NCBI GenBank assembly: GCA_964607805.1
Contig: CAZSLF010000005.1
Coordinates: 1 to 49,271, forward strand
From: an uncultured Candidatus Saccharibacteria bacterium
GTDB taxonomy: Bacteria; Patescibacteriota; Minisyncoccia; Phycocordibacterales; CAIZLB01
DNA: 49,271 nucleotides
Reading direction: 5' to 3'
How positions within the stretch are numbered: the stretch's first letter is position 1; every line of letters starts with the position of its first letter. The notes under the pieces are model-generated. The model was given only the letters and a program-made list of their open reading frames with translations. It was not told where the DNA came from and ran no database searches. This document shows, one piece after another, positions 7,039 through 19,050 of this stretch. The translations under genes were made by a program, and so were the position numbers.

Positions 7039-7923
7039 CTAATTTGAAAGAGTTTTCTTTATACCGTCTTCAAGTGATATTTTCTGTTTCCAGCCAGGAA
7101 CTTTTCTGCCTTTTGTCCATGGTAACATGACTTCACGAAATCTATATTCTCTTGCACCCCATTCTATATTTAGTTTTTGCCCTGATACTTTTTCAAATAA
7201 TAAGGCTAATTTCTTGAGACTAAGTCTTTTATTTGATTGCACTGCAAATGATTTGTTTGCGAACTTACGATTTTTATCTTTAGAAATTACAGATATAAGC
7301 TGTATATAGGCGTCAATTACATTTTCAATATAACTTATATCTATAATTTGCTCTCCTGGAGACATGCCTAATAATTCTTTTGATTTACTAATCTTTGACC
7401 ATAAAGCAAAGACCTTCGATCTAGTATCGTTTGGTCCGAAAGTGTCGTTTAACTTTATTGTTACAAAATTAATATTTGTCGTTTCTGTATAAAATTGTGC
7501 CAAAACCTCAAATGCCTGTTTACTTGCGGCATACAAATTTACAGGTGAATATTCCTTGTCCTTATAGTGTTGCCAAAAAGTTCCAGTATTAACAAACCAT
7601 TTAACATTTGCAGAAGATGCTGCTTCTAAAATCTCTGCACTGAATTGAATATTTGTTTGAATTAACTTTGAAATATCCTCTGGTTTATGTGCGGCAAGGA
7701 AAAGGGAAGCCAGGTGAACTACACCTTCTATTTTTTCTTTTAAGATGAAAGTCTTTAGGTTTTCGATATTTCCATCAAAAGTATAAATTGATACTTTTTT
7801 ATTGATCTTCGAAGTATCGGTGCTTGGCCGAACAACTGTATAAACCTTATGCTTATCTTTGAGAAGCTTATCAATTAGGTGAGAACCGATAAAACCAGTG
7901 GCTCCTGTTATGAGTATTTTCAT
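7039..7923 (-). CDS. NAD(P)-dependent 4-ketoreductase, CDP-abequose/CDP-paratose synthase-like (RfbJ/RfbS)
   Basis: TGATGFIG, FVNTGTFWQ, YAASK, TIKLNDTFGPND, GEQIIDISYI. Confidence 0.75.
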   Translation of the reverse strand: MKILITGATGFIGSHLIDKLLKDKHKVYTVVRPSTDTSKINKKVSIYTFDGNIENLKTFILKEKIEGVVHLASLFLAAHKPEDISKLIQTNIQFSAEILEAASSANVKWFVNTGTFWQHYKDKEYSPVNLYAASKQAFEVLAQFYTETTNINFVTIKLNDTFGPNDTRSKVFALWSKISKSKELLGMSPGEQIIDISYIENVIDAYIQLISVISKDKNRKFANKSFAVQSNKRLSLKKLALLFEKVSGQKLNIEWGAREYRFREVMLPWTKGRKVPGWKQKISLEDGIKKTLSN

Positions 7924-8468
7924 CCTCTAAATATAAATGGAGATTGGAAATTCTCCAAGGTCTCAAAATTTAGGTCACGTGTTGAGATAATTGGGTTTTC
8001 AATACTCCAATCCATACCAAATGAGTCGAATTTAATCCCTGTATCGCAAGTTTTATCATATGTAGCAGTCTGCAAATATACAGTACAAGTATTGTCTTCA
8101 AGCGAAACAAATCCGTGAACACATCCCGGTGGCATATAGATACTTCTTCTATTGTCGGCAGATAATTCTGTAGAAATAAACTGTCCGTAAGTGGGCGAGC
8201 CAACTCTAATATCAAGTACAACATCTATGACCTTACCGGAAGTTACATAGACTAGCTTAGAATGATCCTTTGGTGGCACCTGAATATGCATCCCTCTTAT
8301 TACATTTTTATTCGAGATTGAATAAAAACTCTCAGTGAAATCAACACTTAGATTGTGCTCAGCAAAAGCTTCTTTATTAAATGTCTTAACAAAAATACCT
8401 CTATCATCTTGAAAGACATTTGTTTCAAGAATAAAGACTCCTTCTATTTTTGTTGGAATAATGTTCAT
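7920..8468 (-). CDS. rfbC: RfbC/RmlC-family NDP-4-keto-sugar 3,5- (or 5-) epimerase
   Basis: FQDDRGIF, S.KNVIRGMH.Q, KLVYVTSG...DVVLDIR.GSPTYGQ, PPGCVHGF, IISTRD. Confidence 0.85.
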   Translation of the reverse strand: MNIIPTKIEGVFILETNVFQDDRGIFVKTFNKEAFAEHNLSVDFTESFYSISNKNVIRGMHIQVPPKDHSKLVYVTSGKVIDVVLDIRVGSPTYGQFISTELSADNRRSIYMPPGCVHGFVSLEDNTCTVYLQTATYDKTCDTGIKFDSFGMDWSIENPIISTRDLNFETLENFQSPFIFRG

Positions 8469-8520
8469 GTGAGATTTTACAGACTATTTTAGCTGTAATG
8501 AAGATTCTTACTCAGCTTAA

Positions 8521-9750
8521 TTATTTTACCTTAACTTTTGACAAAAATTCTACGAACTTGTTTTTAAGGTATTCAATTTGATCTTTGTTTAGACCGTGAT
8601 GGCAGGCAACAACAAAACCACCTTTCATAATCTGCTCAGTATTTTTATAATCTTGAATAATTTGTCTATTCTCAATTCCTTTGTAACCAGGTTGCTTTAA
8701 GATATTTCCAGTGAAGATTGGTCTAGTCTGAATATTATTGTTTTCTAGGAATTCGATAAGGTCCATTCGAGCGAAAGGAGCATCTGGTCTGATAATAAGA
8801 GGGAAGGCTAACCAGGCAGTAGTAGTCTTTGGTGTTTGATTAGGAAGAATGAAATATTTTTCGTATGGACCAAAGAATTTAAGTAGGTTAGCAAAATTCT
8901 TTTTTCTTTCACTTAAGAATTTTGGTAATTTTTTGCATTGAGCAAGAGCGAAAGCTGATGAAATCTCAAGTGGTAAGAAGTTATATCCAATTTCACTAAA
9001 GATAAATTTATTATCATATGGGATTCCAGCTAGTTTTGTACTGAATCGATTTTTCAAAAGTTCAGAATTTGCCTTTTCACCGAAAAGAGAAGAGCTTCGG
9101 CCCCAGCCTCTAAGAACTACTAGTTTATCAACCCATTTTGGATCGTTTACCATGATCATGCCTCCACCACCTGCACCGTTGATAATATGAGAACCATAGA
9201 AACTTGTTACTGAAATATCAGAATAAACACCAGTAGGTTTACCATCATATGTTCCACCAAGAGTGTCACATGAGTCTTCAATAAAATAAATCTTATGTTT
9301 TTTTGCTAGAGCGGATAGAGCCTTCATGTTTGGAATATTTCCCATTAGAGAAGGGATCATTAGAGCTTTTGTTTTTGGGGTAATAGCCTTTTCAACTTGT
9401 TCTAGATTTATAAGGTATGTATCTGGATCAACATCGACAAAAACTGGCACAAGACCTTTTTGAATAATTGGAGCAACTACAGTTGCAAAAGTTAGAATTG
9501 GTGTAATTACTTCAGATCCCTTAGGAAGATTTAATATTTCAAAAGCAAGTAGGTTTGCTGATGAGCCTGAATTAACCATAACTCCATATTTCTTTCCAAA
9601 CATCTTGGCAATTTTAGCTTCAAACTCTTTTGTTTTATCGCCAAGAGCTGTATTTCCTTTAAGAATTTTTACTACAGCATCGATTTCTTCTTGACCATGA
9701 ACTGAGAAACCATAGGGAACTCGCATCTTTGAACTAGTTGATTTAGACAT
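8521..9750 (-). CDS. PLP-dependent NDP-4-keto-6-deoxyhexose 3-dehydratase (RfbH/DdhC- and ColD-like)
   Basis: VNSGSSANL, IEDSCDTLG, SFYGSH (His at the aminotransferase Lys position), GYN..PLE. Start placed at 9750 (MSKSTSSKMRVPYG) because the longer ORF runs through the divergent promoter. Confidence 0.82.
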   Translation of the reverse strand: MSKSTSSKMRVPYGFSVHGQEEIDAVVKILKGNTALGDKTKEFEAKIAKMFGKKYGVMVNSGSSANLLAFEILNLPKGSEVITPILTFATVVAPIIQKGLVPVFVDVDPDTYLINLEQVEKAITPKTKALMIPSLMGNIPNMKALSALAKKHKIYFIEDSCDTLGGTYDGKPTGVYSDISVTSFYGSHIINGAGGGGMIMVNDPKWVDKLVVLRGWGRSSSLFGEKANSELLKNRFSTKLAGIPYDNKFIFSEIGYNFLPLEISSAFALAQCKKLPKFLSERKKNFANLLKFFGPYEKYFILPNQTPKTTTAWLAFPLIIRPDAPFARMDLIEFLENNNIQTRPIFTGNILKQPGYKGIENRQIIQDYKNTEQIMKGGFVVACHHGLNKDQIEYLKNKFVEFLSKVKVK

Positions 9751-9776
9751 AATATTTATATTGTTTTTATGGGGAG

Positions 9777-9785
9777 ATAGTAGCA
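9777..9785 (-). promoter_or_regulatory. Extended -10 promoter for the leftward glycan operon
   Basis: Minus strand TG-C-TACTAT, 26 nt upstream of the ATG at 9750. Confidence 0.5.
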
Positions 9786-9794
9786 CGATATTTG

Positions 9795-9823
9795 TTGACA
9801 TGGAAGCCCTAAAGCAGTAGTGT
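9795..9823 (+). promoter_or_regulatory. sigma70-type promoter for the rightward glycan operon
   Basis: TTGACA (9795-9800), 17 nt, TAGTGT (9818-9823). Confidence 0.6.
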
Positions 9824-9853
9824 ATTTGGTACATACACCCTGTGTATCTATCT

Positions 9854-10936
9854 ATGGAAATTAAAAACTTTTATAAAAATAAAAAAGTTCTTGTTACAGG
9901 CCATACTGGGTTCAAAGGCAGTTGGCTTTCGCAGGTATTGCTAAATTTCGGTGCAGATGTTGTAGGTGTGTCACTTGCCCCTGACACAAAACCTAATTTA
10001 TACGAGGTTTTACAACAAGAGGGTAAGGTTAAAAGTTATTATTTAGATATAGAAGACTTTGAAGCTCTTAAAAAAGTTTTTATCGAAGAAAAACCTGAAA
10101 TTGTATTTCATATGGCCGCTCAGGCTATTGTTAGAACAGGATATCTTAATCCTCTTAGGACTTTTTCATCAAACGCTATGGGTACAGCCCATGTTCTTGA
10201 AGCAATTAGAGAGGTTGATAGTGTAAAGTCTGCAGTAATTATCACTACAGATAAAGTTTATGAAAACAAAGAGTGGCATCATGCATATAGAGAAAACGAT
10301 TCTCTTGGAGGATATGATCCCTATAGTGCAAGTAAGGCAGCTGCAGATATAATAACTAATTCTTATATTCAGTCATATTTTAATATTAAGCACTATAAAG
10401 AAAAGCATAACTCTCTTGTCGCTATCGCTAGAGCTGGAAACGTAATAGGAGGTGGTGACTGGGCTGAATATAGACTTATTCCAGATATTATCCGGGCTGT
10501 ATATGAAAAGAAAGAAAAGATAGAGAGTAGAAATCCTCAAGCTATAAGACCTTGGCAGCATGTTCTCGAGCCTCTTTCAGGTTATATGACCCTTGCACAG
10601 GCTCTTTACGAAGGAAGACCAGAAGTATCTGGTGCATGGAATTTTGGTCCTAACAACGAAAGTTTTGTTACAGTTGAGACTTTGATCAATCATGCGATTG
10701 AAATTCTAGGAGCAGGAACACATGATTCAAATCCTGATACTTCTCATATGCATGAGGCAAATCTATTAAAGTTAGATATTAATAAGGCGCATGCAATTTT
10801 GTCTTGGAAGCCGAGACTTCATTTACAAGAAAATTTGAAAATGACTTTTGATTGGTATCGTAACTACTATGAAAAAAGCGCAGATATTGTAGAATTCACT
10901 AATAGTCAGATTGAAGAATATTTTAATATAAAATAA
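9854..10936 (+). CDS. rfbG: CDP-glucose 4,6-dehydratase
   Basis: VLVTGHTGFKGSWL, HMAAQA, TTDKVYEN, GGYDPYSASK, RAGNVIGGGDW, RPWQHVLEPL. Start placed at MEIK. Confidence 0.95.
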   Translation: MEIKNFYKNKKVLVTGHTGFKGSWLSQVLLNFGADVVGVSLAPDTKPNLYEVLQQEGKVKSYYLDIEDFEALKKVFIEEKPEIVFHMAAQAIVRTGYLNPLRTFSSNAMGTAHVLEAIREVDSVKSAVIITTDKVYENKEWHHAYRENDSLGGYDPYSASKAAADIITNSYIQSYFNIKHYKEKHNSLVAIARAGNVIGGGDWAEYRLIPDIIRAVYEKKEKIESRNPQAIRPWQHVLEPLSGYMTLAQALYEGRPEVSGAWNFGPNNESFVTVETLINHAIEILGAGTHDSNPDTSHMHEANLLKLDINKAHAILSWKPRLHLQENLKMTFDWYRNYYEKSADIVEFTNSQIEEYFNIK

Positions 10937-10945
10937 TAAATACTT

Positions 10946-11716
10946 ATGAAAGTTGTAATTTTAGCCGGAGGATTAGGAACAAGAATAAGTGAGGAGACAA
11001 ATGTTAGGCCTAAACCTATGGTTGAAATTGGTGGAAAACCTATCTTGTGGCATATCATGAAGACATATTCCCATTATGGTTTTAACGAATTTATTATTTG
11101 TATTGGTTATAAAGGAAACTATATTAAAGAATGGTTCAACAATTACTATTTAAATCATAGTGATGTAACTTTTGATTTTGAAAAAAATAATATCGAATAC
11201 CATAAACCTGCAGGTGAAAAATGGAAAGTAACTCTAGTTGATACGGGAGATTCAACTATGACAGGTGGACGACTTAAGAGAATTCAAGAATATATTGGCA
11301 ATGAGCCTTTCATGATGACCTATGGAGACGGTGTAGGTAATATACAAATTGATAAGTTAGTTGAATTTCATAAGGAGCACGATGCATTAGTTACTGTAAC
11401 TGCGGTAACTCCTGAAGGTAGATTCGGTGTTGTAAATATCCACGAGAGTAAAACAGTTACATCGTTTAGCGAAAAAACTGATACAAATAAAGTAAGCGGA
11501 GGATATTTTGTATTAGAACCAGAAATATTTGATTATTTACAAGATGGAGACGCTACAGTTTTTGAAAAGGCACCACTTGAGAAGATAACAGACGAAGGAA
11601 AATTAAAAGCATTCGTACACGATGGTTTCTGGAAGCCTATGGATACTTTGCCAGATAAAATTCGTCTTGAGGCTATGTGGTCAAAAGGCGATGCTCCTTG
11701 GAAGATTTGGAATTAG
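10946..11716 (+). CDS. rfbF: Glucose-1-phosphate cytidylyltransferase
   Basis: ILAGGLGTRISEET..RPKPMVEIGGKPILWHIMK, VDTG.STMTGGRL, TYGDGV, GFW.PMDT. Confidence 0.95.
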   Translation: MKVVILAGGLGTRISEETNVRPKPMVEIGGKPILWHIMKTYSHYGFNEFIICIGYKGNYIKEWFNNYYLNHSDVTFDFEKNNIEYHKPAGEKWKVTLVDTGDSTMTGGRLKRIQEYIGNEPFMMTYGDGVGNIQIDKLVEFHKEHDALVTVTAVTPEGRFGVVNIHESKTVTSFSEKTDTNKVSGGYFVLEPEIFDYLQDGDATVFEKAPLEKITDEGKLKAFVHDGFWKPMDTLPDKIRLEAMWSKGDAPWKIWN

Positions 11717-11833
11717 ATGTAACAAATGGTAATTTACCCTATACGATGCTACAATCCGAAGAATTCTTAAGATTTGGGGCCCAAGCATAGATAGATTAAA
11801 GAGAGGATTCTGGTCAATGATCAATATAAATAA

Positions 11834-12601
11834 ATGATAAAGAAAATATTAATAGAAGAAAAGGATTTGAATACATTGTCTTCAAGAATACCCTCAATTC
11901 AGAAGCCTTCTTTTAAATATGATTATAAAAATGTCGTGGTGAATAAACCATGGGGTTATGAATATTTAATGTTTGAAAATGAACAAGTGGCTGTATGGGT
12001 TCTTTTCATGAAAAAAGGATCTAAGACATCTATGCATTGTCATCCTCAAAAGAATACTTCACTTCTAGTATTAGATGGACGAGCTAAGACTTCTTCATTA
12101 AATGACGAATTTGAACTTAGTTTTCTAGACAGCATGATTATTTCTAAAGGTGTATTTCATTCTACTTCAACAGAGTGTGAAGACGGTGCGGTAATCATGG
12201 AAATTGAAACTCCTCCCGATAAAACCGACCTAGTACGCCTTAAAGATGAGTATGGAAGAGAGAATAAGGGGTACGAAGGTGAGAATAATATCTCTAGAGA
12301 TCTAGAACAATATGAGCATCATAGTTTTCACGACGATATTGAGAATTATAGAAAAATCACTGAAAAGGCTTTAAAAAACAGCAAGGTCTTATTACATTCA
12401 AATGAAAATTGGGATAAACTATATAGTGAAATCAAGGACAAGAAGAACTTCATTGTAAGCTTTTTGGATACATTTATTTTGGACCAAAATGACAATATGG
12501 TATTGGAAATAGGTGAAGTTTGTGACGGTGAATGGCTAGTAAAAGAATTTGAAAAGCTCAAAGCAAGTAAAGAAATCTTTAATCTTTTGATCATCAATTA
12601 A
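11834..12601 (+). CDS. Cupin-domain protein (mannose-6-phosphate isomerase type II-like cupin plus an unknown C-terminal part)
   Basis: KPWGYEY, TSMHCHPQK, KGVFHST and EIETP form a metal-binding cupin signature. Confidence 0.7.
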   Translation: MIKKILIEEKDLNTLSSRIPSIQKPSFKYDYKNVVVNKPWGYEYLMFENEQVAVWVLFMKKGSKTSMHCHPQKNTSLLVLDGRAKTSSLNDEFELSFLDSMIISKGVFHSTSTECEDGAVIMEIETPPDKTDLVRLKDEYGRENKGYEGENNISRDLEQYEHHSFHDDIENYRKITEKALKNSKVLLHSNENWDKLYSEIKDKKNFIVSFLDTFILDQNDNMVLEIGEVCDGEWLVKEFEKLKASKEIFNLLIIN

Positions 12602-12604
12602 TAA

Positions 12605-14398
12605 ATGGCAAAAATAAAAGTCTCAGATCTAATAGTTAATTACATTGTTTCACTTGGTGTTAAGCATGTTTTTATTGTCTCAGGAGGAAGCAATGTGAAT
12701 ATTCTCGATTCAATAGATAAAAATCCAAATTTAAAATATATTTGTAATCACAATGAACAGGCATCAGCCATGGCTGCTGAGGCATATGGAAGAGTTGGAG
12801 GAAATATTGGTGTCTGTGTTACAACCATGGGTCCTGCAGCTACGAATACTTTGACTGGAGTTATGGGCGCTTGGACAGATTCAATCGCAACCCTGTATCT
12901 ATGTGGGCAGGTAAAAAGAGAGGTTATGATTACTGGTACGCACTTGAGACAGCTTGGAGTGCAGGAAATAAATATTACAGATATAGCGAGACCAATTACA
13001 AAGTATTGTGAAGTTGTTCAGGATCCGCTTCAAATTTTATACCATCTAAAGAAAGCTGTTTATATTGCTAAATCAGGCAGGCCAGGACCAGTTCTTCTTG
13101 ATATTCCTGCAGATATTCAATCTATGGAAATTGAAGAAAGTGAATTTTTAGATTTTGATCCAGTAAAAGATGGTTTAGAGCCAGCGCCAAATACTTTATT
13201 AAAAGACCAGGTTGCAGAATTATCAAAATGGCTTAAGGAATCAAAGAGACCCGTTATTTTTGCCGGACATGGAATTCGGCTTTCAAAGTCAGAAAAAGAA
13301 TTTATAGAATTAGCGGAAAAATTGCAGATTCCAGTTCTTACAACTATGTCTGCAAATGATTTGATAGAGAGCGACCATCCTTTATTTGTCGGACGGCCTG
13401 GAGTATTTGGAGATAGAGCAGGAAATTTTGCAATCCAAAATTCTGATTTAATGATAAGTATCGGTGCTAGACACCATCTTTGGAATATTGGTTATAACTA
13501 TGCTTCATTTGCCAAATCTGCCAAAAAGGTTGTAGTTGATATCGATATAAATGAATTAAATAAAAAAACAGTTGTTCCTGATTTAGCGATTAATGCTAAT
13601 GCTAAAGATTTTATTGAAGAGTTGAAAAGTCATGCAACTGAATTAGTTGAAATTAAACCATGGTTAGAAAAGTGCAGAGGATGGAAAGAAAAGTATCCTG
13701 TTGTATCACCTGAATATAAAGAGGAAAAAAACTTTGTAAATTCATACTATTTTACAGACCGTTTATCAAAAAAGCTGGAAGAAAATGAAATTATAATGAC
13801 GGGTGTAGGAACCGCATTTACAGGAACGCTTCAATCAATAAAAATAAAAAAAGGCCAAAGATTACACTGTAGTATAGGCTGCGCATCTATGGGATATGAT
13901 TTACCTTCTGCAATTGGAGGATGGTTTTCTACTGGTAAAAATAGAATTATCCTAATAACTGGCGACGGGGGAATTATGTTCAACCTACAGGAATTGCAAA
14001 CAATTGTTCATCATAAAATTCCAGTCAAAATATTTTTGTTGAATAACAATGGCTACTTGGCGATTAAAAACACCCAAAATTCATTTTTCCAAGGAAATTT
14101 GGCTGGTGTAGATGGAAAATCTGGAGTTAGTCTGCCGTCATTTGAAAAGATTGCAAATGCTTTTGGTTTAGGATATGTCAGTATGAAGACTAATGATGAT
14201 ATTGATCAGAAAATAGAAGAAGCTTTAAATTATGATGGTCCGGTGATTTGTGATATCAATATGTCACCTACTCAGCCTTTATTGCCAAAAGTATACTCAG
14301 AGAAACTTCCCGATGGTACTATGATTAGTAAACCGCTTGAGGACATGTTCCCGTTCATAGATAGAGATGAATTTACTAAGAATATGACAAATGATTAA
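12605..14398 (+). CDS. ThDP-dependent enzyme of the acetolactate synthase superfamily (YerE-like carboligase candidate)
   Basis: NHNEQASAMAAEAY, TMGPAATN, GRPGPV.LDIP.D, ITGDGGIMFNLQEL...NNNGY (GDG-N ThDP motif). Confidence 0.9.
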   Translation: MAKIKVSDLIVNYIVSLGVKHVFIVSGGSNVNILDSIDKNPNLKYICNHNEQASAMAAEAYGRVGGNIGVCVTTMGPAATNTLTGVMGAWTDSIATLYLCGQVKREVMITGTHLRQLGVQEINITDIARPITKYCEVVQDPLQILYHLKKAVYIAKSGRPGPVLLDIPADIQSMEIEESEFLDFDPVKDGLEPAPNTLLKDQVAELSKWLKESKRPVIFAGHGIRLSKSEKEFIELAEKLQIPVLTTMSANDLIESDHPLFVGRPGVFGDRAGNFAIQNSDLMISIGARHHLWNIGYNYASFAKSAKKVVVDIDINELNKKTVVPDLAINANAKDFIEELKSHATELVEIKPWLEKCRGWKEKYPVVSPEYKEEKNFVNSYYFTDRLSKKLEENEIIMTGVGTAFTGTLQSIKIKKGQRLHCSIGCASMGYDLPSAIGGWFSTGKNRIILITGDGGIMFNLQELQTIVHHKIPVKIFLLNNNGYLAIKNTQNSFFQGNLAGVDGKSGVSLPSFEKIANAFGLGYVSMKTNDDIDQKIEEALNYDGPVICDINMSPTQPLLPKVYSEKLPDGTMISKPLEDMFPFIDRDEFTKNMTND

Positions 14399-14431
14399 TC
14401 AAATATAATTTAGTTTTTAAATACAAATAAA

Positions 14432-14965
14432 ATGGAAAAAACAAAAAAAGTAGTGATTATTACAGCCGAAGCCTTTGAAGATGAAGAAGTTATGTATCCA
14501 GTTATGCGACTTCATGAAGAAGGTTTTACTGTTGATATTGCCACAAAAGATGCAAAGCTCGTTGTCGGAAGATTGAATTTTCCTCTTGAATTATTGGTTA
14601 GATATTACGGTACTTTGGTAGATGCTAAAAAACTTAATCCCGATGACTATGACATGGTCTTATTACCAGGTGGCTTTGAGGCACCTGATCGTGTAAGACA
14701 AATACCAGAAGTATTGGATTTTGTTAGGAAGATGCATAGTTCAAATAAGCTTGTTGCCGCTTTCTGTCACGGACCTTGGATCCTTATTTCAGCTGGATTG
14801 CTTAAAGGAAAAAAAGCTACAGGTTATATCGGTATTAAAGATGATATTCAAAACGCAGGCGCTGAATTTATCGATCAACCTGTAGTTGAAGATGGAAATA
14901 TAATTACATCAAGACACCCTAGAGATGTAGGACACTTTATGAAGGCTTTGCTTGCGAGATTTTAA
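14432..14965 (+). CDS. PfpI/DJ-1 family protein (protease I/glyoxalase III/deglycase)
   Basis: FEDEE, LLPGG, AAFCHGPW nucleophile elbow, VVEDGNIITSRHP.D. Confidence 0.9.
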   Translation: MEKTKKVVIITAEAFEDEEVMYPVMRLHEEGFTVDIATKDAKLVVGRLNFPLELLVRYYGTLVDAKKLNPDDYDMVLLPGGFEAPDRVRQIPEVLDFVRKMHSSNKLVAAFCHGPWILISAGLLKGKKATGYIGIKDDIQNAGAEFIDQPVVEDGNIITSRHPRDVGHFMKALLARF

Positions 14966-15005
14966 TCTAGCCTTTGATTAATTAAGTTTTTAACTTATTC
15001 AATTT

Positions 15006-15641
15006 ATGAAAAATATAATAATATTTGATTTTGATGGTGTATTGTCTAACTCTGTAAATATTGTTTATGAGATGAATAAGGAAGCAATTGAAGCAATTGG
15101 AAAAGGTATAACTATGGAGGAATACCTTGCTTGCTTTGAAGGTCATATAAATCAAAGATTGCAAAAGCTATTGAGTTTAACTGACGAAGAAAAAGAAAAA
15201 CTAGTTGCTCATAAAGCACAACTTTTTCCAAAATATTATATACCGGAAAAAGTTAAGCTTTTTGATTTTGCTGAAGAATTGGTAGTAGAAGCCAGTAAGC
15301 TTGGAGAACTATGGATAGTTAGTTCTTGTCCTGGAGATCTGATTAAAAATCTATTGGATACACATAACTTAACTAAATATTTCTCAAATATAAATGGTCA
15401 AAACGCTAGACCTAAAAATGAAGTATTTAAAGTAGCTTTTGAAAGCCATAGTGGTGGTAAAGTTTTCTTTATAACTGATACAACGGGTGATTTGAAGGAG
15501 ACTAGAAATCTAGATTTCAAAATGATTAATATTGCTGTCGATTGGGGTTTTCATTCGGCTGAATTATTGAAAAGTGAGAATCCTGATTTATTAACAAGCA
15601 ATCCGGAAGAAATAGTAGAGTTCATTAGCAAAAATAGTTAA
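15006..15641 (+). CDS. HAD-family hydrolase (phosphoglycolate phosphatase-like)
   Basis: IFDFDGVL, VSS, ITDTTGD, VDWGFH. Confidence 0.85.
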   Translation: MKNIIIFDFDGVLSNSVNIVYEMNKEAIEAIGKGITMEEYLACFEGHINQRLQKLLSLTDEEKEKLVAHKAQLFPKYYIPEKVKLFDFAEELVVEASKLGELWIVSSCPGDLIKNLLDTHNLTKYFSNINGQNARPKNEVFKVAFESHSGGKVFFITDTTGDLKETRNLDFKMINIAVDWGFHSAELLKSENPDLLTSNPEEIVEFISKNS

Positions 15642-15646
15642 CATCG

Positions 15647-16012
15647 ATGAGAACTCTAAGGTCTAATAAAACTCAATCTTTGTATGATGCACATAGAGCA
15701 GGCTTGGAAGCGGACGGTGATTGTGAGCTATGCTCAAAAGATATTCTTAAAGAATTTAAGCATTGGAATATTGTGCAGAATTTATTTCCATATGACATAT
15801 TGGCAACTGTTCATCATATGATTATTCCAAAAGGACATGTTAGAGAATTAGATCTTGATTTTGATGAATTAAAAGAATTGATTGAAATAAAATCTACTTA
15901 TATAAATGAAGGTTATGATTTAATTCTACATCAGGTTACAAAAGATCAGTCGATTCCAGATCACTTCCATCTACACCTAATAGTCGGAAAAGAAGACTTT
16001 AACACTAATTAG
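15647..16012 (+). CDS. HIT-like family protein
   Basis: CxxC, N.FPY, HHMIIPKGH and the HFHLHL histidine triad. Confidence 0.75.
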   Translation: MRTLRSNKTQSLYDAHRAGLEADGDCELCSKDILKEFKHWNIVQNLFPYDILATVHHMIIPKGHVRELDLDFDELKELIEIKSTYINEGYDLILHQVTKDQSIPDHFHLHLIVGKEDFNTN

Positions 16013-16063
16013 TCTTATACTTTTAAACGATAATCCATAGTATAGTCTTATACAATCAATATT

Positions 16064-17062
16064 ATGAAAAAAATCGCAATTTTAGGAGCAACAGGATATA
16101 TAGGAAAGTCTCTTGTAAATGAATTTTTGCAAGCGAATTCCGGAGAAGGTTATCAGCTGAACCAAATTTATCTATATGTTAGATCGAAAGAAAAGCTTGA
16201 GAAGTTTATAGAAAGTTTAAAGTTGAAATCTTCAGGAGGTTATAATATTTCGGACATAGAAAACTTCGGTGAAGAGAATTACGATGTTGTTATCAATTGT
16301 GTAGGTATAAGTAGTCCTGCAACATTGAAAGAGAAACCATTTGAAATAATTAAACTCACAGAGGAGTTTGATAATAAGATTCTGAATTTCTTAGACAATC
16401 ATAAAGAAACTATATATATAAATTTGAGTAGCGGTGCGGCTTATGGTCAAAACGCTACGCGACCTGTAAGTGAAGAGACTCCGTCACTTATCGATATTAA
16501 TAATATTAAGAATACGAATTTATATTCTATTGCTAAGATTTATACAGAGGCTAAGCATCGAGCTTTAAATCACTTGCGAATTATCGATTTAAGAGTTTTT
16601 GCTTTCTTTAGTCAATTTGCAGATTTGGATGGAGGATTTCTAATGTCTGAAATTGCTAAGTGTCTTGTTGAAGATAAAGTATTTAAAACAACGTCTACTG
16701 ATATTGTCAGGGATTTTATTGGCCCAGAAGACTTATATAATATTATTCAATGTTTAATTGATGGTGAAAATTCTGAAGGGGTTGAAAAAGTGCATGAAAA
16801 TATAAAAAATGATGTATTCGATGTTGTATCAAAAGCTCTAGTTACAAAATTGGAATTGATAGATTTTTTAAAGACTAAATATAATTTGAAAGTTGAGATT
16901 GCGGAGGCTGCCAAGTCATCTTTGCCGCAAAACCAGAGCGCAACAGGGGACAAAAACTCATATTATTCACAAAGTGAAAAACTAAAAAGAATTGGATTTG
17001 TGCCGAAATATAGTTCGATGGAATGTATTGATAGGGAGCTGAAGAGGCTTCTCACAAGATAG
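16064..17062 (+). CDS. NAD-dependent epimerase/dehydratase/reductase (extended SDR)
   Basis: GATGYIG, LSSGAAYG, YSIAK, RDFIGPED. Confidence 0.85.
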   Translation: MKKIAILGATGYIGKSLVNEFLQANSGEGYQLNQIYLYVRSKEKLEKFIESLKLKSSGGYNISDIENFGEENYDVVINCVGISSPATLKEKPFEIIKLTEEFDNKILNFLDNHKETIYINLSSGAAYGQNATRPVSEETPSLIDINNIKNTNLYSIAKIYTEAKHRALNHLRIIDLRVFAFFSQFADLDGGFLMSEIAKCLVEDKVFKTTSTDIVRDFIGPEDLYNIIQCLIDGENSEGVEKVHENIKNDVFDVVSKALVTKLELIDFLKTKYNLKVEIAEAAKSSLPQNQSATGDKNSYYSQSEKLKRIGFVPKYSSMECIDRELKRLLTR

Positions 17063-17176: not shown

Positions 17177-17872
17177 ATGTCGACGATTATTACTCCAGAA
17201 GATCTGTATTCCGCCAGTATTGCCGTATTGACCGATTGTATCCCTAAGCGGGTTGACACACTTTTCATTCACGGTTCCTGTATAAATGATGCAAGTCTCG
17301 ATGATCATTGTCTTACTCAAGCGGTAGAATATTTGAGGAGAGGTGAAGTTGGATCAATTACTCTAAACGGGTCTGGTCCAGTAGGTGCATATCCGGGTGT
17401 CCAAGATTGGTTACCAAAGCTCAGGGATTTGGGGGTTCCAAGGGATTTAATTCACCTCATAAAACCTGCTGACAAGACGGCTCTTGAGTCAAAATATTTG
17501 TTGGATTTTGCATATGGAATGGGGTGGAAGATTATATCAATCCGCTCCCAACCCCATCATCAACTCAGGTGTTTTTTACAAATGGTAGCCCTGACACAGA
17601 CCTCAAAAGCTCTGCCCTTGGTTTTTAACCGTCCGGTAACTGGTGTTGACTGGAATAAGGTCTTGAAAAAAATTTCGATTAACCCACAAGTTCCGGTGGT
17701 TGAAGGTACATTTGATAGGCACTGTAGGCTCGAGGTTGAAAACATCAACAGATATGCAGTTCCGGTTGAAGATCGTTGCGATATCAGGGGTTTTACACCG
17801 CACGCCACAATAGAGGAAATGTTCAAGTATTTTCGCTGGCGGAGCGCAGCGGTTGAACAAGTTATAGATTAA
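17177..17872 (+). CDS. YdcF/DUF218-like protein
   Basis: Pattern DTLFIHG...AVEYLRRG...ITLNGS...LRDLGVP...KT.LES...SQPHHQLR follows the DUF218 fold. Visibly higher GC than its neighbours. Confidence 0.55.
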   Translation: MSTIITPEDLYSASIAVLTDCIPKRVDTLFIHGSCINDASLDDHCLTQAVEYLRRGEVGSITLNGSGPVGAYPGVQDWLPKLRDLGVPRDLIHLIKPADKTALESKYLLDFAYGMGWKIISIRSQPHHQLRCFLQMVALTQTSKALPLVFNRPVTGVDWNKVLKKISINPQVPVVEGTFDRHCRLEVENINRYAVPVEDRCDIRGFTPHATIEEMFKYFRWRSAAVEQVID

Positions 17873-17898
17873 GACAGTGGCAACAAGAAAAATTTCGG

Positions 17899-17929
17899 GC
17901 CCACGATGCGCAGCATCGTGGGCTTTTTT
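17899..17929 (+). terminator. Intrinsic terminator
   Basis: GCCCACGATGC-GCA-GCATCGTGGGC (11 bp perfect) followed by TTTTTT. Confidence 0.85.
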
Positions 17930-17985: not shown

Positions 17986-19050
17986 ATGAAAGTTGCACTT
18001 ATCACAGGGATTACAGGACAGGATGGAAGTTATTTAGCAGAATTATTGCTTGAAAAAGGATATGAGGTTCATGGAATAAAACGCCGAACTTCTATTATTG
18101 CTACAGATCGTGTAGATCATTTATATGATCATGAGGAGTATAAAAAAAGATTCCATCTTCACTATGGAGATTTGGCTGATCCGCTTAATCTTGTTCATAT
18201 AATTTCTAAAGTTAAGCCAGATGAGATTTATAATCTTGGTGCTATGTCTCATGTAAAAGTGAGTTTTGAAAAATCTGATTATACTTCTGATATAGATGCG
18301 CTTGGACCTTTGCGAATTCTTGAGGCGCTACGGATTTTGAATATGACAAATGTGAAGTTTTATCAAGCGTCTTCTTCTGAATTATATGGAAAAGTGCAGG
18401 AAATTCCTCAAACAGAGAAAACACCATTTTATCCTAGATCTCCATATGGCTGCGCGAAACTTTTCGGTTATTGGATAACAGTCAATTTTAGAGAGTCATA
18501 TAACATGTTTGCTTGTAATGGAATTTTATTTAATCATGAATCGCCACGAAGAGGGGAAACTTTCGTTACAAGAAAAATTACAAGAGGTGTAGCAAAAATT
18601 GCTCATAAAATTGATTCAGTATTGCTCCTTGGAAACTTAGATGCAAAAAGAGATTGGGGTCATGCAAAGGATTATGTGGAAGCTATGTGGCTTATTTTGC
18701 AACAAGAAGTTCCTGAAGATTTTGTTATAGCAACAGGTGAGACTACGACAGTTAGAGATTTTGCATTAAAGGCTTTTGCGCGAGCAGGCATACAGATTGA
18801 ATTTTCAGGCGAAGGTGTAGATGAAGTAGGGAAAGTTATTTCTTCTAAGCATGATCATCTGGCAGCTGGAACAATTGTTGTTAAGGTTGATGAAAAATAT
18901 TTTCGTCCAGCTGAGGTGGATCTTTTGTTGGGAGATCCGACGAAGGCAAGAACTGTTCTTGGTTGGAAGCCAAAATATACTTTGGATATGATGATTGACG
19001 AGATGGTAGATGCTGATATGAAGGAAATTGAGAATAATTCTAAGAAATAG
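17986..19050 (+). CDS. gmd: GDP-mannose 4,6-dehydratase
   Basis: [67 protein letters not shown]. Confidence 0.97.

What the first reader, a model, noticed from the sequence alone, without database searches (positions are those of the whole stretch)
11834..17062. Probable branched-chain sugar (yersiniose/caryophyllose-type) synthesis: YerE-like ThDP carboligase with cupin and SDR
Seen: an acetolactate-synthase-fold enzyme co-transcribed with rfbG-rfbF, 3 nt after a cupin, with no ilvN/C/D nearby, and a second unassigned SDR at 16064. Known: Yersinia YerE adds a pyruvate-derived C2 unit to CDP-4-keto-3,6-dideoxyglucose and the SDR YerF reduces it to yersiniose; CPR generally lack branched-chain amino acid synthesis. 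Inference: this CPR makes a C4-branched 3,6-dideoxysugar alongside abequose/paratose/ascarylose-type sugars (RfbJ-like and RfbC-like genes). The role of the cupin is unexplained.
Basis: partly seen in the sequence, partly recalled or inferred. Interest (0 to 1): 0.65.

Follow-up and report, generated by a model that had tools for sequence, protein, structure and literature searches.

The report
Sugar-branching thiamine enzyme with conserved helpers
A tiny-genome bacterium carries a thiamine-dependent enzyme of the kind that welds carbon side chains onto rare surface sugars, not an amino-acid enzyme. It sits in a four-gene cassette (cupin, thiamine enzyme, DJ-1/PfpI, HAD phosphatase) that recurs across distant microbes and whose chemistry has not been described in the papers I could search.

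Summary
On the + strand, rfbG (9842-10936), rfbF (10946-11716), a 255-aa cupin (11834-12601), a 597-aa ThDP enzyme (12605-14398, 3 nt after the cupin), DJ-1/PfpI, a HAD, a HIT-like ORF, a 332-aa SDR and an unknown ORF run without a strong terminator until 17897-17925.

The ThDP enzyme is not an AHAS. It falls below every AHAS cut-off, the genome has no ilvC or ilvD, and its best solved relative is JanthE (439 bits against 234-245 for AHAS and PpYerE). JanthE's own locus is erwiniose-like: rfbF-rfbG-E1-JanthE-SDR-aldolase. About 75% of 49 related loci carry rfbF, rfbG and an E1-like gene. SDR332 is 33% identical over its full length to the SDR after JanthE, so it is the likely YerF/ErwF-type reductase.

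The cupin is now placed. Cupin, DJ-1 and HAD co-occur strictly with this ThDP enzyme, and the cupin is fused to it in five genomes. The trio excludes the aldolase donor modules. In a sister arrangement, unrelated 2-hydroxyacid dehydrogenases follow the ThDP gene. I infer a donor-supply route, which makes simple yersiniose unlikely.

Verdict: a new variant of a known kind.

The parts
8521..9834 (-). E1/RfbH-like PMP-dependent 3-dehydratase, Fe-S-free variant. Presumed to make the 4-keto-3,6-dideoxy acceptor.
   Evidence: NF011936 RfbH scores 353.6 bits, below the cut-off of 423. The best PDB match is Yersinia E1, 3bcx, at 254 bits. His is kept at the H220 position, but C251, C253 and C261 of the Fe-S loop are absent. 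No E3-type reductase is found in the genome.
9842..10936 (+). CDP-glucose 4,6-dehydratase (RfbG), first gene of the + strand operon.
   Evidence: TIGR02622 scores 474 bits against a cut-off of 278.
10946..11716 (+). Glucose-1-phosphate cytidylyltransferase (RfbF).
   Evidence: TIGR02623 scores 386 bits against a cut-off of 300. It is 68% identical to RfbF of L002 and only 36% identical to the extra RfbF paralogue ('263') that other cassettes carry.
11834..12601 (+). 255-aa cupin related to type II phosphomannose isomerase, with a 3-His site (H68, H70, H109) and a C-terminal alpha/beta domain. Obligate partner of the ThDP enzyme.
   Evidence: PF01050 scores 23.9 bits and TIGR01479 matches over profile positions 357-467. 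A family search found 743 homologues at E <= 1e-5; in an alignment of 49 of them (A2) the motifs KPWGYEYL, HCHP, FH and DLVRLxDxYGR hold invariant or near-invariant residues. The AlphaFold model has pLDDT 91.8. The cupin is fused N-terminally to the ThDP enzyme in L005, L009, L012, L022 and L024.
12605..14398 (+). JanthE/ErwE/YerE-like ThDP- (and probably FAD-) dependent carboligase; the sugar C-branching enzyme.
   Evidence: PDB 8rph (JanthE) scores 439 bits over residues 3-592, including the C-terminal PLEDMFPF tail. PpYerE scores 245 bits and AHAS 234 bits or less. It is below all AHAS NCBIfam cut-offs. The family clade has support 0.999. The GDG...NN motif and the HNEQ glutamate are present.
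14432..14965 (+). DJ-1/PfpI/YhbO-type Cys-His enzyme (glyoxalase III / deglycase class).
   Evidence: TIGR01382 scores 158 bits against a cut-off of 139. PH1704 (PfpI) scores 136 bits. The CHGP nucleophile elbow is invariant in 12 cassette copies. A DJ-1 gene is present in 11 of the 12 cupin-bearing loci and in no other related locus.
15006..15641 (+). HAD-IA phosphatase.
   Evidence: PF13419 scores 48.6 bits. The DFDG motif I is invariant. There is weak similarity to phosphoglycolate phosphatases. A homologue scoring over 100 bits is present in the same 11 loci.
15647..16012 (+). 121-aa ORF with a histidine-triad-like C-terminus (HFHLHLI). Specific to this window.
   Evidence: The PF01230 HIT match is only 13 bits, E = 0.16. 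The sequence was read. No homologue is found in the 83 related loci searched.
16064..17062 (+). Extended SDR; the likely YerF/ErwF-type reductase of the branch carbonyl.
   Evidence: It is 33% identical (E = 1e-63) over its full length to the SDR immediately downstream of JanthE. Homologues follow the ThDP gene at 10 and 35 nt in L068 and L031, and follow the cassette in L002, L086 and L090.
17177..17872 (+). 231-aa ORF of unknown family, last gene before the terminator.
   Evidence: No Pfam or NCBIfam hit. No homologue in the related loci.
17897..17925 (+). Intrinsic-terminator-like hairpin that closes the rfbG-to-unk231 unit.
   Evidence: 13-bp stem with 8 G-C pairs followed by TTTTACTGTT.
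7039..8468 (-). RmlC-like epimerase (7920-8468) and a 294-aa SDR (7039-7923). A parallel unbranched (ascarylose/paratose-type) outlet for the same CDP-keto sugar.
   Evidence: TIGR01221 scores 169 bits against a cut-off of 156; PF01370 scores 115 bits. The arrangement is syntenic in L002 and L068.

Best explanation
The gene at 12605-14398 encodes a sugar C-branching ThDP carboligase of the JanthE/ErwE/YerE-like family.

Proposed pathway:
1. RfbF and RfbG make CDP-4-keto-6-deoxy-D-glucose.
2. The divergently transcribed E1-like dehydratase probably removes O-3. This step is inferred, because the enzyme lacks the Fe-S site and has no E3 partner.
3. The ThDP enzyme decarboxylates a 2-oxo acid and adds the resulting acyl-anion equivalent to the C-4 ketone of the CDP-sugar, creating a tertiary alcohol with an acyl branch.
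4. SDR332 reduces the branch carbonyl, the YerF/ErwF-type step.
5. The glycosyltransferases, Wzx and the Wzy-like protein of the same island put the sugar into a surface glycan.

The cupin, DJ-1/PfpI and HAD proteins are not bystanders. They form an obligate module with this ThDP subclade. My most likely reading, which is inference, is that they supply the donor 2-oxo acid. In that reading the PMI-like cupin and the HAD turn a phosphorylated sugar or carbonyl precursor into a 2-oxoaldehyde. DJ-1, acting as a glyoxalase III, converts that to a 2-hydroxy acid. A 2-hydroxyacid dehydrogenase then oxidises it to the 2-oxo acid. That dehydrogenase is encoded inside the cassette in the sister arrangement and only elsewhere in this genome. 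The product would therefore be a longer or functionalised branch rather than plain yersiniose.

Shown: family membership, gene context, co-occurrence and fusions. Inferred: the acceptor, the donor, and every catalytic role of the three helper proteins.
For: **Family assignment**
- JanthE (8rph) scores 439 bits over residues 3-592; PpYerE scores 245 and AHAS 234.
- The protein is below every AHAS equivalog cut-off, with a best score of 374.9 against 538.
- A tree of 95 sequences gives support 0.999 for the family that includes JanthE and excludes IlvI and PpYerE.
- JanthE is published as a ketone-accepting YerE-like enzyme (PMC12188165, PMC12247030).

**Context**
- JanthE's own locus is rfbF-rfbG-DegT-JanthE-SDR-BphJ-BphI. 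This is the erwiniose layout described in PMC9306805.
- Of 49 related loci with at least 7 kb on both sides, 37 have rfbG, 36 rfbF and 35 an E1-like gene.

**Reductase**
- SDR332 is 33% identical (E = 1e-63) to the SDR after JanthE.
- Homologues follow the ThDP gene at 10 and 35 nt in L068 and L031.

**Not an AHAS**
- The genome has no ilvC or ilvD, and this is its only AHAS-like gene.

**The module**
- The cupin is found in 12 of 86 loci. DJ-1 is found in 11 of those 12 and nowhere else (chance about 5e-13). HAD is found in the same 11.
- Cupin-ThDP fusions of 850-872 aa occur in five genomes labelled Nitrospinaceae, Scalindua, Pacearchaeota and two Chloroflexota.
- All four cupin-anchored look-ups land beside a ThDP and a DJ-1 gene. 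In L090 and L091 the order is cupin-ThDP-DJ-1-HAD; in L092 and L093 it is DJ-1-cupin-ThDP.
- The window's ThDP clade of six sequences, all cassette-bearing, has support 0.999. It includes a phage-like contig that carries cupin-ThDP-DJ-1-HAD-E1-like.

**Donor-supply reading**
- 24 of 40 non-cassette loci carry HpaI, BphI, NeuB or DHQS-type genes next to the ThDP gene. None of the 9 cassette loci do (Fisher p = 0.0016).
- The one locus that has both modules has two ThDP genes, one beside each module.
- The simple CPR locus L068 has a class I/II aminotransferase in the slot where the window has the cupin.
- All four 'type B' cassettes (L006, L021, L092, L093) have a 2-hydroxyacid dehydrogenase directly after the ThDP gene. 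These come from two unrelated families, Ldh_2 three times and 2-Hacid_dh once.
Against: - There is no biochemical evidence for any protein in this window.
- The window-type cassette (type A) has no 2-hydroxyacid dehydrogenase of its own. The only candidate is a 33%-identical 2-Hacid_dh homologue on contig C9.
- The five fusion-type loci have no rfbF, rfbG or E1-like gene within 10 kb. They sit beside HldE-like kinase/nucleotidyltransferase genes and radical SAM genes. The acceptor there may not be a CDP-3,6-dideoxy sugar, and the module might act on sugar phosphates.
- One genome (G173) has a DJ-1-cupin pair with no ThDP gene nearby.
- The fold search of the cupin gave only generic cupin and bicupin matches, with TM 0.3-0.4.
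- The E1-like protein lacks the Fe-S cysteines and the genome lacks E3, so the acceptor may keep O-3.
- The co-occurrence statistics ignore phylogenetic non-independence.
- JanthE's physiological substrates are themselves unknown (PMC12188165).
Confidence: 0.7

Rival explanations
1. Plain yersiniose pathway. The ThDP enzyme uses pyruvate and adds a C2 acetyl unit to CDP-4-keto-3,6-dideoxyglucose, and SDR332 reduces it to a 1-hydroxyethyl branch. The cupin, DJ-1 and HAD play no part in the sugar chemistry; they might be damage control or passengers.
For: There is no aldolase or aminotransferase in the operon. JanthE accepts pyruvate in vitro (PMC12188165). Pyruvate is the donor most readily available in a reduced genome. 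DJ-1 and HAD families are well known in metabolite repair; this last point is general knowledge and was not tested here.
Against: Cupin, DJ-1 and HAD co-occur strictly with the ThDP enzyme, the cupin is physically fused to it, and the module is kept on a phage-like contig. The module excludes the aldolase modules. Dedicated 2-hydroxyacid dehydrogenases occur in the type B cassettes.
Confidence: 0.15
2. The ThDP enzyme still branches the CDP-keto sugar, but the helpers act on the sugar rather than on the donor. The cupin would isomerise or epimerise the NDP-keto sugar before ligation, as FdtA, RmlC, WbuC and CapF-type cupins do, or would rearrange the alpha-ketol product afterwards. HAD and DJ-1 would then trim or detoxify a phosphorylated or dicarbonyl branch.
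For: A cupin-ThDP fusion fits consecutive steps on one substrate. Many cupins act on NDP-4-keto sugars (general knowledge); the CapF cupin appears among the fold matches, and there is a weak WbuC-family hit of 19.5 bits. Carboligation followed by ketol rearrangement is the logic of AHAS-KARI and DXS-DXR (general knowledge).
Against: The cupin's conserved motifs (KPWGYEY, DLVRLxDxYGR) are those of the phosphosugar-binding type II PMI domain. This reading gives no role to the 2-hydroxyacid dehydrogenases of type B cassettes. It also does not explain why the module excludes the aldolase modules.
Confidence: 0.2
3. The cassette is a separate sugar-phosphate pathway. The ThDP enzyme would act like DXS or transketolase and build a ketose phosphate from a 2-oxo acid and an aldose phosphate. 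The PMI-like cupin would isomerise it, HAD (with a kinase or as a mutase) would reposition the phosphate, and an RfbF paralogue or HldE-like enzyme would activate it as an NDP-sugar. In that case the rfbF, rfbG and E1-like genes would serve only the unbranched dideoxyhexose.
For: The combination of PMI-like cupin, HAD and a second RfbF-like nucleotidyltransferase mimics the GmhA-HldE-GmhB and PMI-PMM-GMP pathways. HldE-like genes adjoin the fusion-type cassettes. Six cassettes carry the extra RfbF paralogue. The window has a complete unbranched outlet in its RmlC-like gene and SDR294.
Against: The SDR332-type reductase that follows JanthE and the simple ThDP loci is retained in cassette loci. 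The window, L090 and the phage-like contig lack the extra nucleotidyltransferase and any kinase. The phage-like contig keeps the E1-like gene directly behind the cassette. The cassette clade is nested in a family whose characterised member couples to ketones (PMC12188165). DJ-1 has no role in this scheme.
Confidence: 0.1
4. It is a biosynthetic or catabolic acetolactate synthase, serving branched-chain amino acid or acetoin metabolism.
For: It has the three-domain AHAS fold and scores 375 bits to TIGR00118.
Against: It is below all AHAS cut-offs. No ilvC or ilvD is found in the genome and no small subunit gene lies nearby. It clusters with JanthE at support 0.999, away from IlvI. It has a JanthE-type C-terminal tail. 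It lies in a glycan operon.
Confidence: 0.02

Closest known systems
JanthE of Janthinobacterium sp. HH01 (PDB 8RPH/8RPI/8RPJ) and its gene cluster
   Same: Best solved relative: 439 bits, 37% BLAST identity, aligned end to end including the C-terminal PLEDxxP tail. Same family clade with support 0.999. Same upstream rfbF, rfbG and E1-like genes, and a homologous SDR directly downstream.
   Different: JanthE has the unusual CDG ThDP motif, whereas the window protein has the canonical GDG. JanthE's locus carries a BphI/BphJ-type aldolase-dehydrogenase pair and no cupin, DJ-1 or HAD. JanthE's E1-like neighbour was not examined for the Fe-S cysteines.
ErwE/ErwF/ErwI/ErwJ erwiniose pathway of Pectobacterium atrosepticum (PMC9306805)
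   Same: The logic is the same: CDP-4-keto-3,6-dideoxyglucose plus a dedicated 2-oxo-acid donor made by cluster-encoded enzymes, then ThDP ligation, then NAD(P)H reduction.
   Different: In erwiniose the donor module is an aldolase plus an acetaldehyde dehydrogenase. Here that slot is occupied by cupin + DJ-1 + HAD. The ErwE sequence itself was not available for comparison.
YerE/YerF yersiniose A pathway of Yersinia pseudotuberculosis; PpYerE (PDB 5AHK)
   Same: An AHAS-fold ThDP enzyme in a CDP-dideoxyhexose cluster, followed by a reductase. The reaction type is the same (PMC12247030).
   Different: The window protein is only 29% identical (245 bits) to PpYerE, no better than to AHAS, and PpYerE falls outside the window's clade. 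YerE uses pyruvate. Yersinia uses an Fe-S E1 with an E3 partner.
Acetohydroxyacid synthase large subunit (IlvB/IlvG/IlvI)
   Same: Same fold, the same ThDP-binding GDG...NN motif and the same catalytic Glu.
   Different: The window protein is below all equivalog cut-offs. No small subunit gene lies nearby, and ilvC and ilvD are absent from the genome. It has an extra C-terminal tail and a different clade and context.
Glyoxalase III members of the DJ-1/PfpI superfamily (PH1704, YhbO, Hsp31, Arabidopsis DJ-1d)
   Same: TIGR01382 scores above its cut-off, the Cys-His elbow is conserved, and PH1704 scores 136 bits.
   Different: The known members are stress or detoxification proteins. Here the gene is an obligate part of a biosynthetic cassette.

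Membership tests
JanthE/ErwE/YerE-like ThDP sugar-branching carboligases | AHAS-type three-domain ThDP enzyme with an intact ThDP motif and catalytic Glu | tested here: met
   PF02776, PF00205 and PF02775 are all present. GDGG...NNN and the invariant E51 are present.
JanthE/ErwE/YerE-like ThDP sugar-branching carboligases | Closer in sequence to a characterised ketone-accepting member than to AHAS | tested here: met
   JanthE scores 439 bits against 234 for AHAS. The clade has support 0.999. This holds for JanthE only: PpYerE, at 245 bits, is no closer than AHAS.
JanthE/ErwE/YerE-like ThDP sugar-branching carboligases | Encoded with the genes for the NDP-4-keto-(3,)6-deoxyhexose acceptor | tested here: met
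   rfbG, rfbF and an E1-like gene lie within 3 kb. The same genes occur in 35-37 of 49 related loci and in JanthE's locus.
JanthE/ErwE/YerE-like ThDP sugar-branching carboligases | Partner NAD(P)H reductase of the branch carbonyl (YerF/ErwF) | tested here: met
   SDR332 is 33% identical (E = 1e-63) to the SDR after JanthE, and its homologues adjoin the ThDP gene in L031 and L068. Homology to YerF or ErwF themselves was not tested.
JanthE/ErwE/YerE-like ThDP sugar-branching carboligases | Catalyses 2-oxo-acid to ketone carboligation on a CDP-keto sugar | not testable with these tools
   Needs an enzyme assay.
Acetohydroxyacid synthase (IlvB/G/I) | Reaches the curated equivalog score | tested here: not met
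   TIGR00118 scores 374.9 against a cut-off of 538.35, and all the PRK AHAS models are far below their cut-offs.
Acetohydroxyacid synthase (IlvB/G/I) | Pathway partners ilvC and ilvD (and ilvN/H) are present | tested here: not met
   ilvC and ilvD are absent from the genome although found in 14 of 14 controls. No small-subunit gene is adjacent. ilvN was not searched genome-wide, and the genome is 79% complete.
E1 (RfbH/DdhC/AscC) CDP-6-deoxy-L-threo-D-glycero-4-hexulose 3-dehydrase | His in place of the PLP-binding Lys | tested here: met
   His aligns with H220 of Yersinia E1.
E1 (RfbH/DdhC/AscC) CDP-6-deoxy-L-threo-D-glycero-4-hexulose 3-dehydrase | [2Fe-2S] cysteine loop and an E3 reductase partner | tested here: not met
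   The loop has no Cys, whereas 50 of 57 family-linked E1-like proteins have 3-4. The only FNR-type domain in the genome is fused to an RnfD-like membrane protein.
DJ-1/PfpI/YhbO | Curated score and Cys-His nucleophile elbow | tested here: met
   TIGR01382 scores 158.1 against a cut-off of 139.05. CHGP is invariant.
Type II phosphomannose isomerase cupin domain (PF01050) | Gathering score and PMI motifs | tested here: inconclusive
   The score of 23.9 is barely above the cut-off of 23.6, and TIGR01479 scores 27.5 against 373. RPWG-like and DxxRxxDxYGR-like motifs are conserved, but the metal site is 3-His rather than Gln/His/Glu/His.
HAD-IA phosphatases | DxDG nucleophile motif and HAD_2 score | tested here: met
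   PF13419 scores 48.6 against a cut-off of 23.8. DFDG is invariant.

The most novel reading that the evidence does not exclude
The cupin, DJ-1/PfpI and HAD proteins, together with a 2-hydroxyacid dehydrogenase, would form an undescribed anabolic route. The route turns a sugar phosphate into a 2-oxoaldehyde (a deoxyosone), then into a 2-hydroxy acid, and then into a 2-keto-3-deoxy acid. That acid feeds directly into the ThDP carboligase, which in many lineages is fused to the cupin. Reduced-genome bacteria, DPANN archaea and even a phage-like element could then attach long polyhydroxylated side chains to CDP-dideoxyhexoses, making caryophyllose-like higher sugars. This would be the first biosynthetic role for a glyoxalase-III-type DJ-1 protein.
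Probability: 0.2. Interest if true: 0.8.

Novelty: new variant of a known kind. Interest (0 to 1): 0.6.

Why it matters
**ThDP enzymes.** YerE-like enzymes are sought as biocatalysts for chiral tertiary alcohols. The physiological substrates of the best-studied broad-range member, JanthE, are unknown (PMC12188165). This locus belongs to a distinct, widespread subclade of more than 590 hits in species-representative genomes. That subclade carries its own conserved helper set, which points to a donor or tailoring chemistry not yet described, and it gives concrete enzymes to test.

**CPR biology.** The locus shows that an 'acetolactate synthase' annotation in CPR genomes is a surface-glycan enzyme rather than evidence of amino-acid synthesis. 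These cells appear to invest about nine genes in an exotic branched sugar.

**DJ-1/PfpI proteins.** The physiological roles of this superfamily are disputed. An obligate biosynthetic context offers a clean test case.

Tried and rejected
- **AHAS reading.** Rejected on scores, the absence of ilvC and ilvD, and the tree.
- **Canonical E3 reductase.** I looked for one. The only NAD_binding_1 hit is an RnfD fusion.
- **Fold search of the cupin model.** It returned only generic cupins and bicupins (CDO, BacB, AerE, OxdC, PMI, KdgF) with low TM scores, so no functional assignment was possible.
- **Sequence search of the PDB.** It was uninformative for the cupin, the HAD and SDR332.
- **Key papers.** The JanthE discovery paper and the Krug et al. 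cluster survey are not held in the library. I therefore could not check whether they mention the cupin/DJ-1/HAD helpers.
- **Literature search.** A search for 'branched sugar' + thiamine + DJ-1 found nothing.
- **Split E1alpha/beta ThDP enzymes.** The one ThDP-less DJ-1-cupin pair I found (G173) sits beside a nucleotidyltransferase-like ORF and a helicase, not an E1 pair. The claim remains untested here.
- **Cupin + RfbF paralogue as a split ManC for GDP-mannose.** I considered this and set it aside. The window lacks the paralogue but keeps the cupin, and a second, more PMI-like cupin exists on contig C7.
- **O2-dependent acireductone-dioxygenase-like role (HAD + cupin, as in methionine salvage).** I think this unlikely given the presumably anaerobic hosts (Scalindua, CPR, Pacearchaeota), but I could not exclude it.

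Full report
**1. What is there**

The first 21.4 kb of the window is a surface-glycan island. Its G+C content is lower than that of the rest of the window: 0.31-0.36 against 0.38-0.42.

On the - strand, in order, lie:
- an E1/RfbH-like DegT protein (8521-9834);
- an RmlC-like epimerase (7920-8468);
- a 294-aa SDR (7039-7923);
- Wzx, and then five glycosyltransferases and a DUF268 methyltransferase.

Diverging from these on the + strand lie:
- rfbG (9842-10936; TIGR02622, 474 bits);
- rfbF (10946-11716; TIGR02623, 386 bits);
- a 255-aa cupin (11834-12601);
- a 597-aa ThDP enzyme (12605-14398);
- DJ-1/PfpI (14432-14965; TIGR01382, 158 bits, above its cut-off);
- a HAD-IA phosphatase (15006-15641);
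- a 121-aa ORF with a histidine-triad-like end (15647-16012);
- a 332-aa extended SDR (16064-17062);
- a 231-aa ORF with no family (17177-17872).

The cupin stop codon and the ThDP start codon are 3 nt apart. The only strong terminator-like hairpin on this strand follows the 231-aa ORF, at 17897-17925. GMD (17986-19050) and a Wzy-like/TPR protein follow it.

**2. The ThDP enzyme is not an AHAS**

- It scores below the curated cut-off of every AHAS model. The best is TIGR00118, at 374.9 against 538.35.
- The 840-kb, 79%-complete genome has no ilvC and no ilvD. Both searches found their targets in all 14 control genomes.
- This is the only AHAS-like gene found in the genome.
- Its best solved relative by a wide margin is 8rph, at 439 bits, aligned over residues 3-592 including a C-terminal tail that AHAS lacks. 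PpYerE (5ahk) scores 245 bits and E. coli IlvB 234 bits.
- 8rph is JanthE of Janthinobacterium sp. HH01. It is published as a YerE-like ThDP enzyme that couples 2-oxo acids (C3 to C6) to ketones, and its physiological substrates are unknown (PMC12188165; PMC12247030).
- JanthE has an unusual CDG motif; the window protein has the canonical GDG.
- In a tree of 95 sequences, the family containing the window protein, JanthE and all 91 fetched homologues except one second copy in L037 is separated from IlvI and PpYerE with support 0.999.
- BLAST identities to the window protein are 37% for JanthE, 29% for PpYerE and 26% for IlvI.

**3. The family is a sugar-branching family by context**

Of these, 591 encode a relative, and they span Bacteria and Archaea.
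- Of the 49 fetched loci with at least 7 kb on each side, 37 carry rfbG, 36 rfbF and 35 an E1-like dehydratase.
- I retrieved JanthE's own locus: rfbF-rfbG-DegT-JanthE-SDR(313 aa)-BphJ-like-BphI-like-SDR-GT2. This is the erwiniose layout of PMC9306805, in which an aldolase/dehydrogenase pair makes the 4-hydroxy-2-oxo-acid donor.
- SDR332 of the window is 33% identical (E = 1e-63, full length) to the SDR directly after JanthE.
- Its homologues follow the ThDP gene at 10 nt in L068 and 35 nt in L031.

I therefore assign the ThDP enzyme as the C-branching carboligase and SDR332 as the YerF/ErwF-type reductase. Both assignments rest on homology and context, not on an assay.

**4. The acceptor**

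RfbF and RfbG give CDP-4-keto-6-deoxyglucose. The E1-like protein keeps the His that replaces the PLP lysine. It has none of the loop cysteines C251, C253 and C261 that bind the [2Fe-2S] cluster of Yersinia E1.

The genome has no E3-type reductase. Its only FNR-type domain is fused to an RnfD-like membrane protein.

Among 57 E1-like proteins linked to this ThDP family, 50 keep 3-4 cysteines in the loop. Seven CPR-type ones, including the window's, have none.

A ColD-like, reductase-independent 3-deoxygenation is plausible but unproven, so the '3,6-dideoxy' nature of the acceptor is an inference. The RmlC-like gene and SDR294 provide a parallel unbranched outlet.

**5. The cupin, DJ-1 and HAD are an obligate module**

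Profile searches over 86 related loci gave these counts:
- the cupin is in 12 loci;
- DJ-1 is in 11 of those 12 and in no other locus;
- a HAD scoring over 100 bits is in the same 11.

The chance of that DJ-1/cupin overlap is about 5e-13 if phylogeny is ignored.

In five genomes the cupin and the ThDP enzyme are one ORF of 850-872 aa. Their records are labelled Nitrospinaceae, Scalindua, Pacearchaeota and two Chloroflexota.

The six ThDP sequences closest to the window's all carry the cassette, and the clade has support 0.999. They come from Paceibacterota, Gracilibacteria, Magasanikbacteria and Cephaloticoccus (Verrucomicrobiota). One is on a 195-kb phage-like contig, with YopX, AAA and RNR genes, that carries cupin-ThDP-DJ-1-HAD-E1-like.

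Starting from the cupin side gave the same picture. A family search found 743 homologues. All four that I looked up lie beside a ThDP gene and a DJ-1 gene.

The cupin itself:
- it has invariant H68, H70 and H109;
- it has KPWGYEYL and DLVRLxDxYGR motifs reminiscent of the type II PMI domain;
- its model is confident (pLDDT 91.8) and shows a cupin barrel plus a C-terminal alpha/beta domain;
- the fold search was not diagnostic.

DJ-1 keeps its Cys-His elbow and HAD keeps its DxDG nucleophile.

**6. What the module probably does**

Three observations point to donor supply.

(a) In the family at large, the genes beside the ThDP gene are often enzymes that make 2-oxo acids. HpaI-type aldolases occur in 12 of the 49 loci, NeuB-like genes in 9 and BphI in 2, along with a DHQS-like/adh_short set. 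These occur in 24 of 40 non-cassette loci and in 0 of 9 cassette loci (Fisher p = 0.0016). The only locus with both modules (L085) has two ThDP genes, one next to the aldolases and one inside the cassette.

(b) L068 is the simple CPR locus most syntenic with the window's glycosyltransferase side. It has a class I/II aminotransferase, another route to 2-oxo acids, exactly where the window has the cupin.

(c) In the sister arrangement ('type B': nucleotidyltransferase - dehydratase - RfbF paralogue - DJ-1 - cupin - ThDP), the gene right after the ThDP gene is a 2-hydroxyacid dehydrogenase in 4 of 4 cases. These come from two unrelated families: Ldh_2 in L006, L021 and L093, and 2-Hacid_dh in L092. 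Non-orthologous replacement suggests that the conserved function is the interconversion of 2-hydroxy acid and 2-oxo acid.

Glyoxalase III chemistry, the best-established activity of this DJ-1 class (general knowledge), makes 2-hydroxy acids from 2-oxoaldehydes. A coherent chain is then:
1. a phosphorylated precursor is converted by the PMI-like cupin (enediol chemistry) and HAD (phosphate removal) into a 2-oxoaldehyde;
2. DJ-1 converts that into a 2-hydroxy acid;
3. a dehydrogenase oxidises it to a 2-oxo acid;
4. the ThDP enzyme uses the 2-oxo acid as donor.

Every step of this chain is inference.

Weak points:
- The window's type A cassette has no dehydrogenase of its own. The only candidate is a 33%-identical 2-Hacid_dh homologue on contig C9.
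- The fusion-type loci lack rfb genes and adjoin HldE-like, radical SAM and CMP-sugar genes.
- One genome has a DJ-1-cupin pair with no ThDP gene nearby.

**7. Rivals**

- A plain yersiniose route with pyruvate remains possible, but it leaves the obligate module unexplained.
- The helpers might act on the sugar. The cupin could be an NDP-keto-sugar isomerase or an alpha-ketol isomerase.
- The cassette might be a separate sugar-phosphate-to-NDP-sugar pathway. That is disfavoured because the JanthE-type SDR is retained, because several cassettes have no kinase or extra nucleotidyltransferase, and because the phage-like contig keeps the E1-like gene next to the cassette.
- The AHAS reading is rejected.

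**8. Distribution and novelty**

In an even sample of 300 genomes of the window's phylum, about 11 carry a full-length family member (over 400 bits). None of the 15 sampled genomes from the window's own order or class does. In a sample of 400 genomes, two others carry the strong cupin directly upstream of the ThDP gene. This is a patchy, island-like distribution.

YerE-like branching of CDP-dideoxyhexoses is known, and more than 200 candidate clusters have been predicted in silico (PMC12247030). The basic reading is therefore a new member of a known kind.

I found no mention of the cupin + DJ-1 + HAD module, or of the cupin-ThDP fusions, in the literature I could reach.

Earlier notes from this scan describe the same cassette in other genomes. 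I read them after reaching the same observations, and I treat them as leads, not as support.

My overall verdict is a new variant of a known kind.

Noticed in passing
window 8521-9834 (-): The E1/RfbH-like dehydratase keeps the catalytic His but has no cysteine in the Fe-S loop, and the genome has no E3 reductase. Of 57 E1-like proteins linked to this ThDP family, 50 keep the cysteines; 7 CPR-type ones do not.
   Followed up: partly
window 15647-16012 (+): A 121-aa ORF between HAD and the SDR ends in a histidine-triad-like HFHLHLI. The HIT Pfam match is only 13 bits. No homologue is found in the 83 related loci searched, so it is an addition private to this operon.
   Followed up: partly
window 17177-17872 (+): A 231-aa ORF with no family hit and no homologue in related loci. 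It is the last gene before the strong terminator at 17897-17925.
   Followed up: no
L087 (Logan SRR12983642 contig, 195 kb), 8469-13266: A phage-like contig (YopX x3, AAA, RNR with a LAGLIDADG insert, many small unknown ORFs) carries cupin-ThDP-DJ-1-HAD-E1-like plus methyltransferases, an SDR and a GT34. No rfbF or rfbG homologue was detected in the fetched stretch.
   Followed up: partly
L085 3046-12874 (Magasanikbacteria-type contig): Two ThDP paralogues lie in one operon. The first follows BphJ-like, BphI-like and HpaI aldolase genes. The second sits inside the RfbF-paralogue-cupin-ThDP-DJ-1-HAD-SDR cassette. This suggests two different branches or two successive ligations.
   Followed up: partly
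L022 7364-13191 and L024 97-5640 (Chloroflexota): A cupin-ThDP fusion is followed directly by a second, unfused ThDP paralogue, then DJ-1 and HAD.
   Followed up: no
L103 (G173:C1) 8984-10332 (-): A DJ-1-cupin pair occurs with no ThDP gene nearby, next to a pol-beta-type nucleotidyltransferase-like ORF and a UvrD-like helicase. It is the only exception to the ThDP coupling that I saw.
   Followed up: partly
L068 8821-9996: In the simple CPR locus, a class I/II aminotransferase sits immediately upstream of the ThDP gene, in the position the cupin holds in the window.
   Followed up: no
L010, L011, L062, L078, L082, L084 (near the ThDP gene): A recurrent set of a DHQ-synthase-like gene, an adh_short dehydrogenase and an HpaI aldolase accompanies the ThDP gene in several non-cassette loci. 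It may be another donor-synthesis module.
   Followed up: no
window 880-1935 (-) and 17986-19050 (+): A GT10 fucosyltransferase and a GDP-mannose 4,6-dehydratase are present, but I saw no clear GDP-fucose synthase in the window. SDR294 hits an Fcl model at only 28 bits.
   Followed up: no
window 1-22000: The glycan island has lower G+C (0.31-0.36) than the housekeeping part of the window (0.38-0.42). The ThDP family is patchy within the phylum. Both points are consistent with horizontal acquisition.
   Followed up: partly
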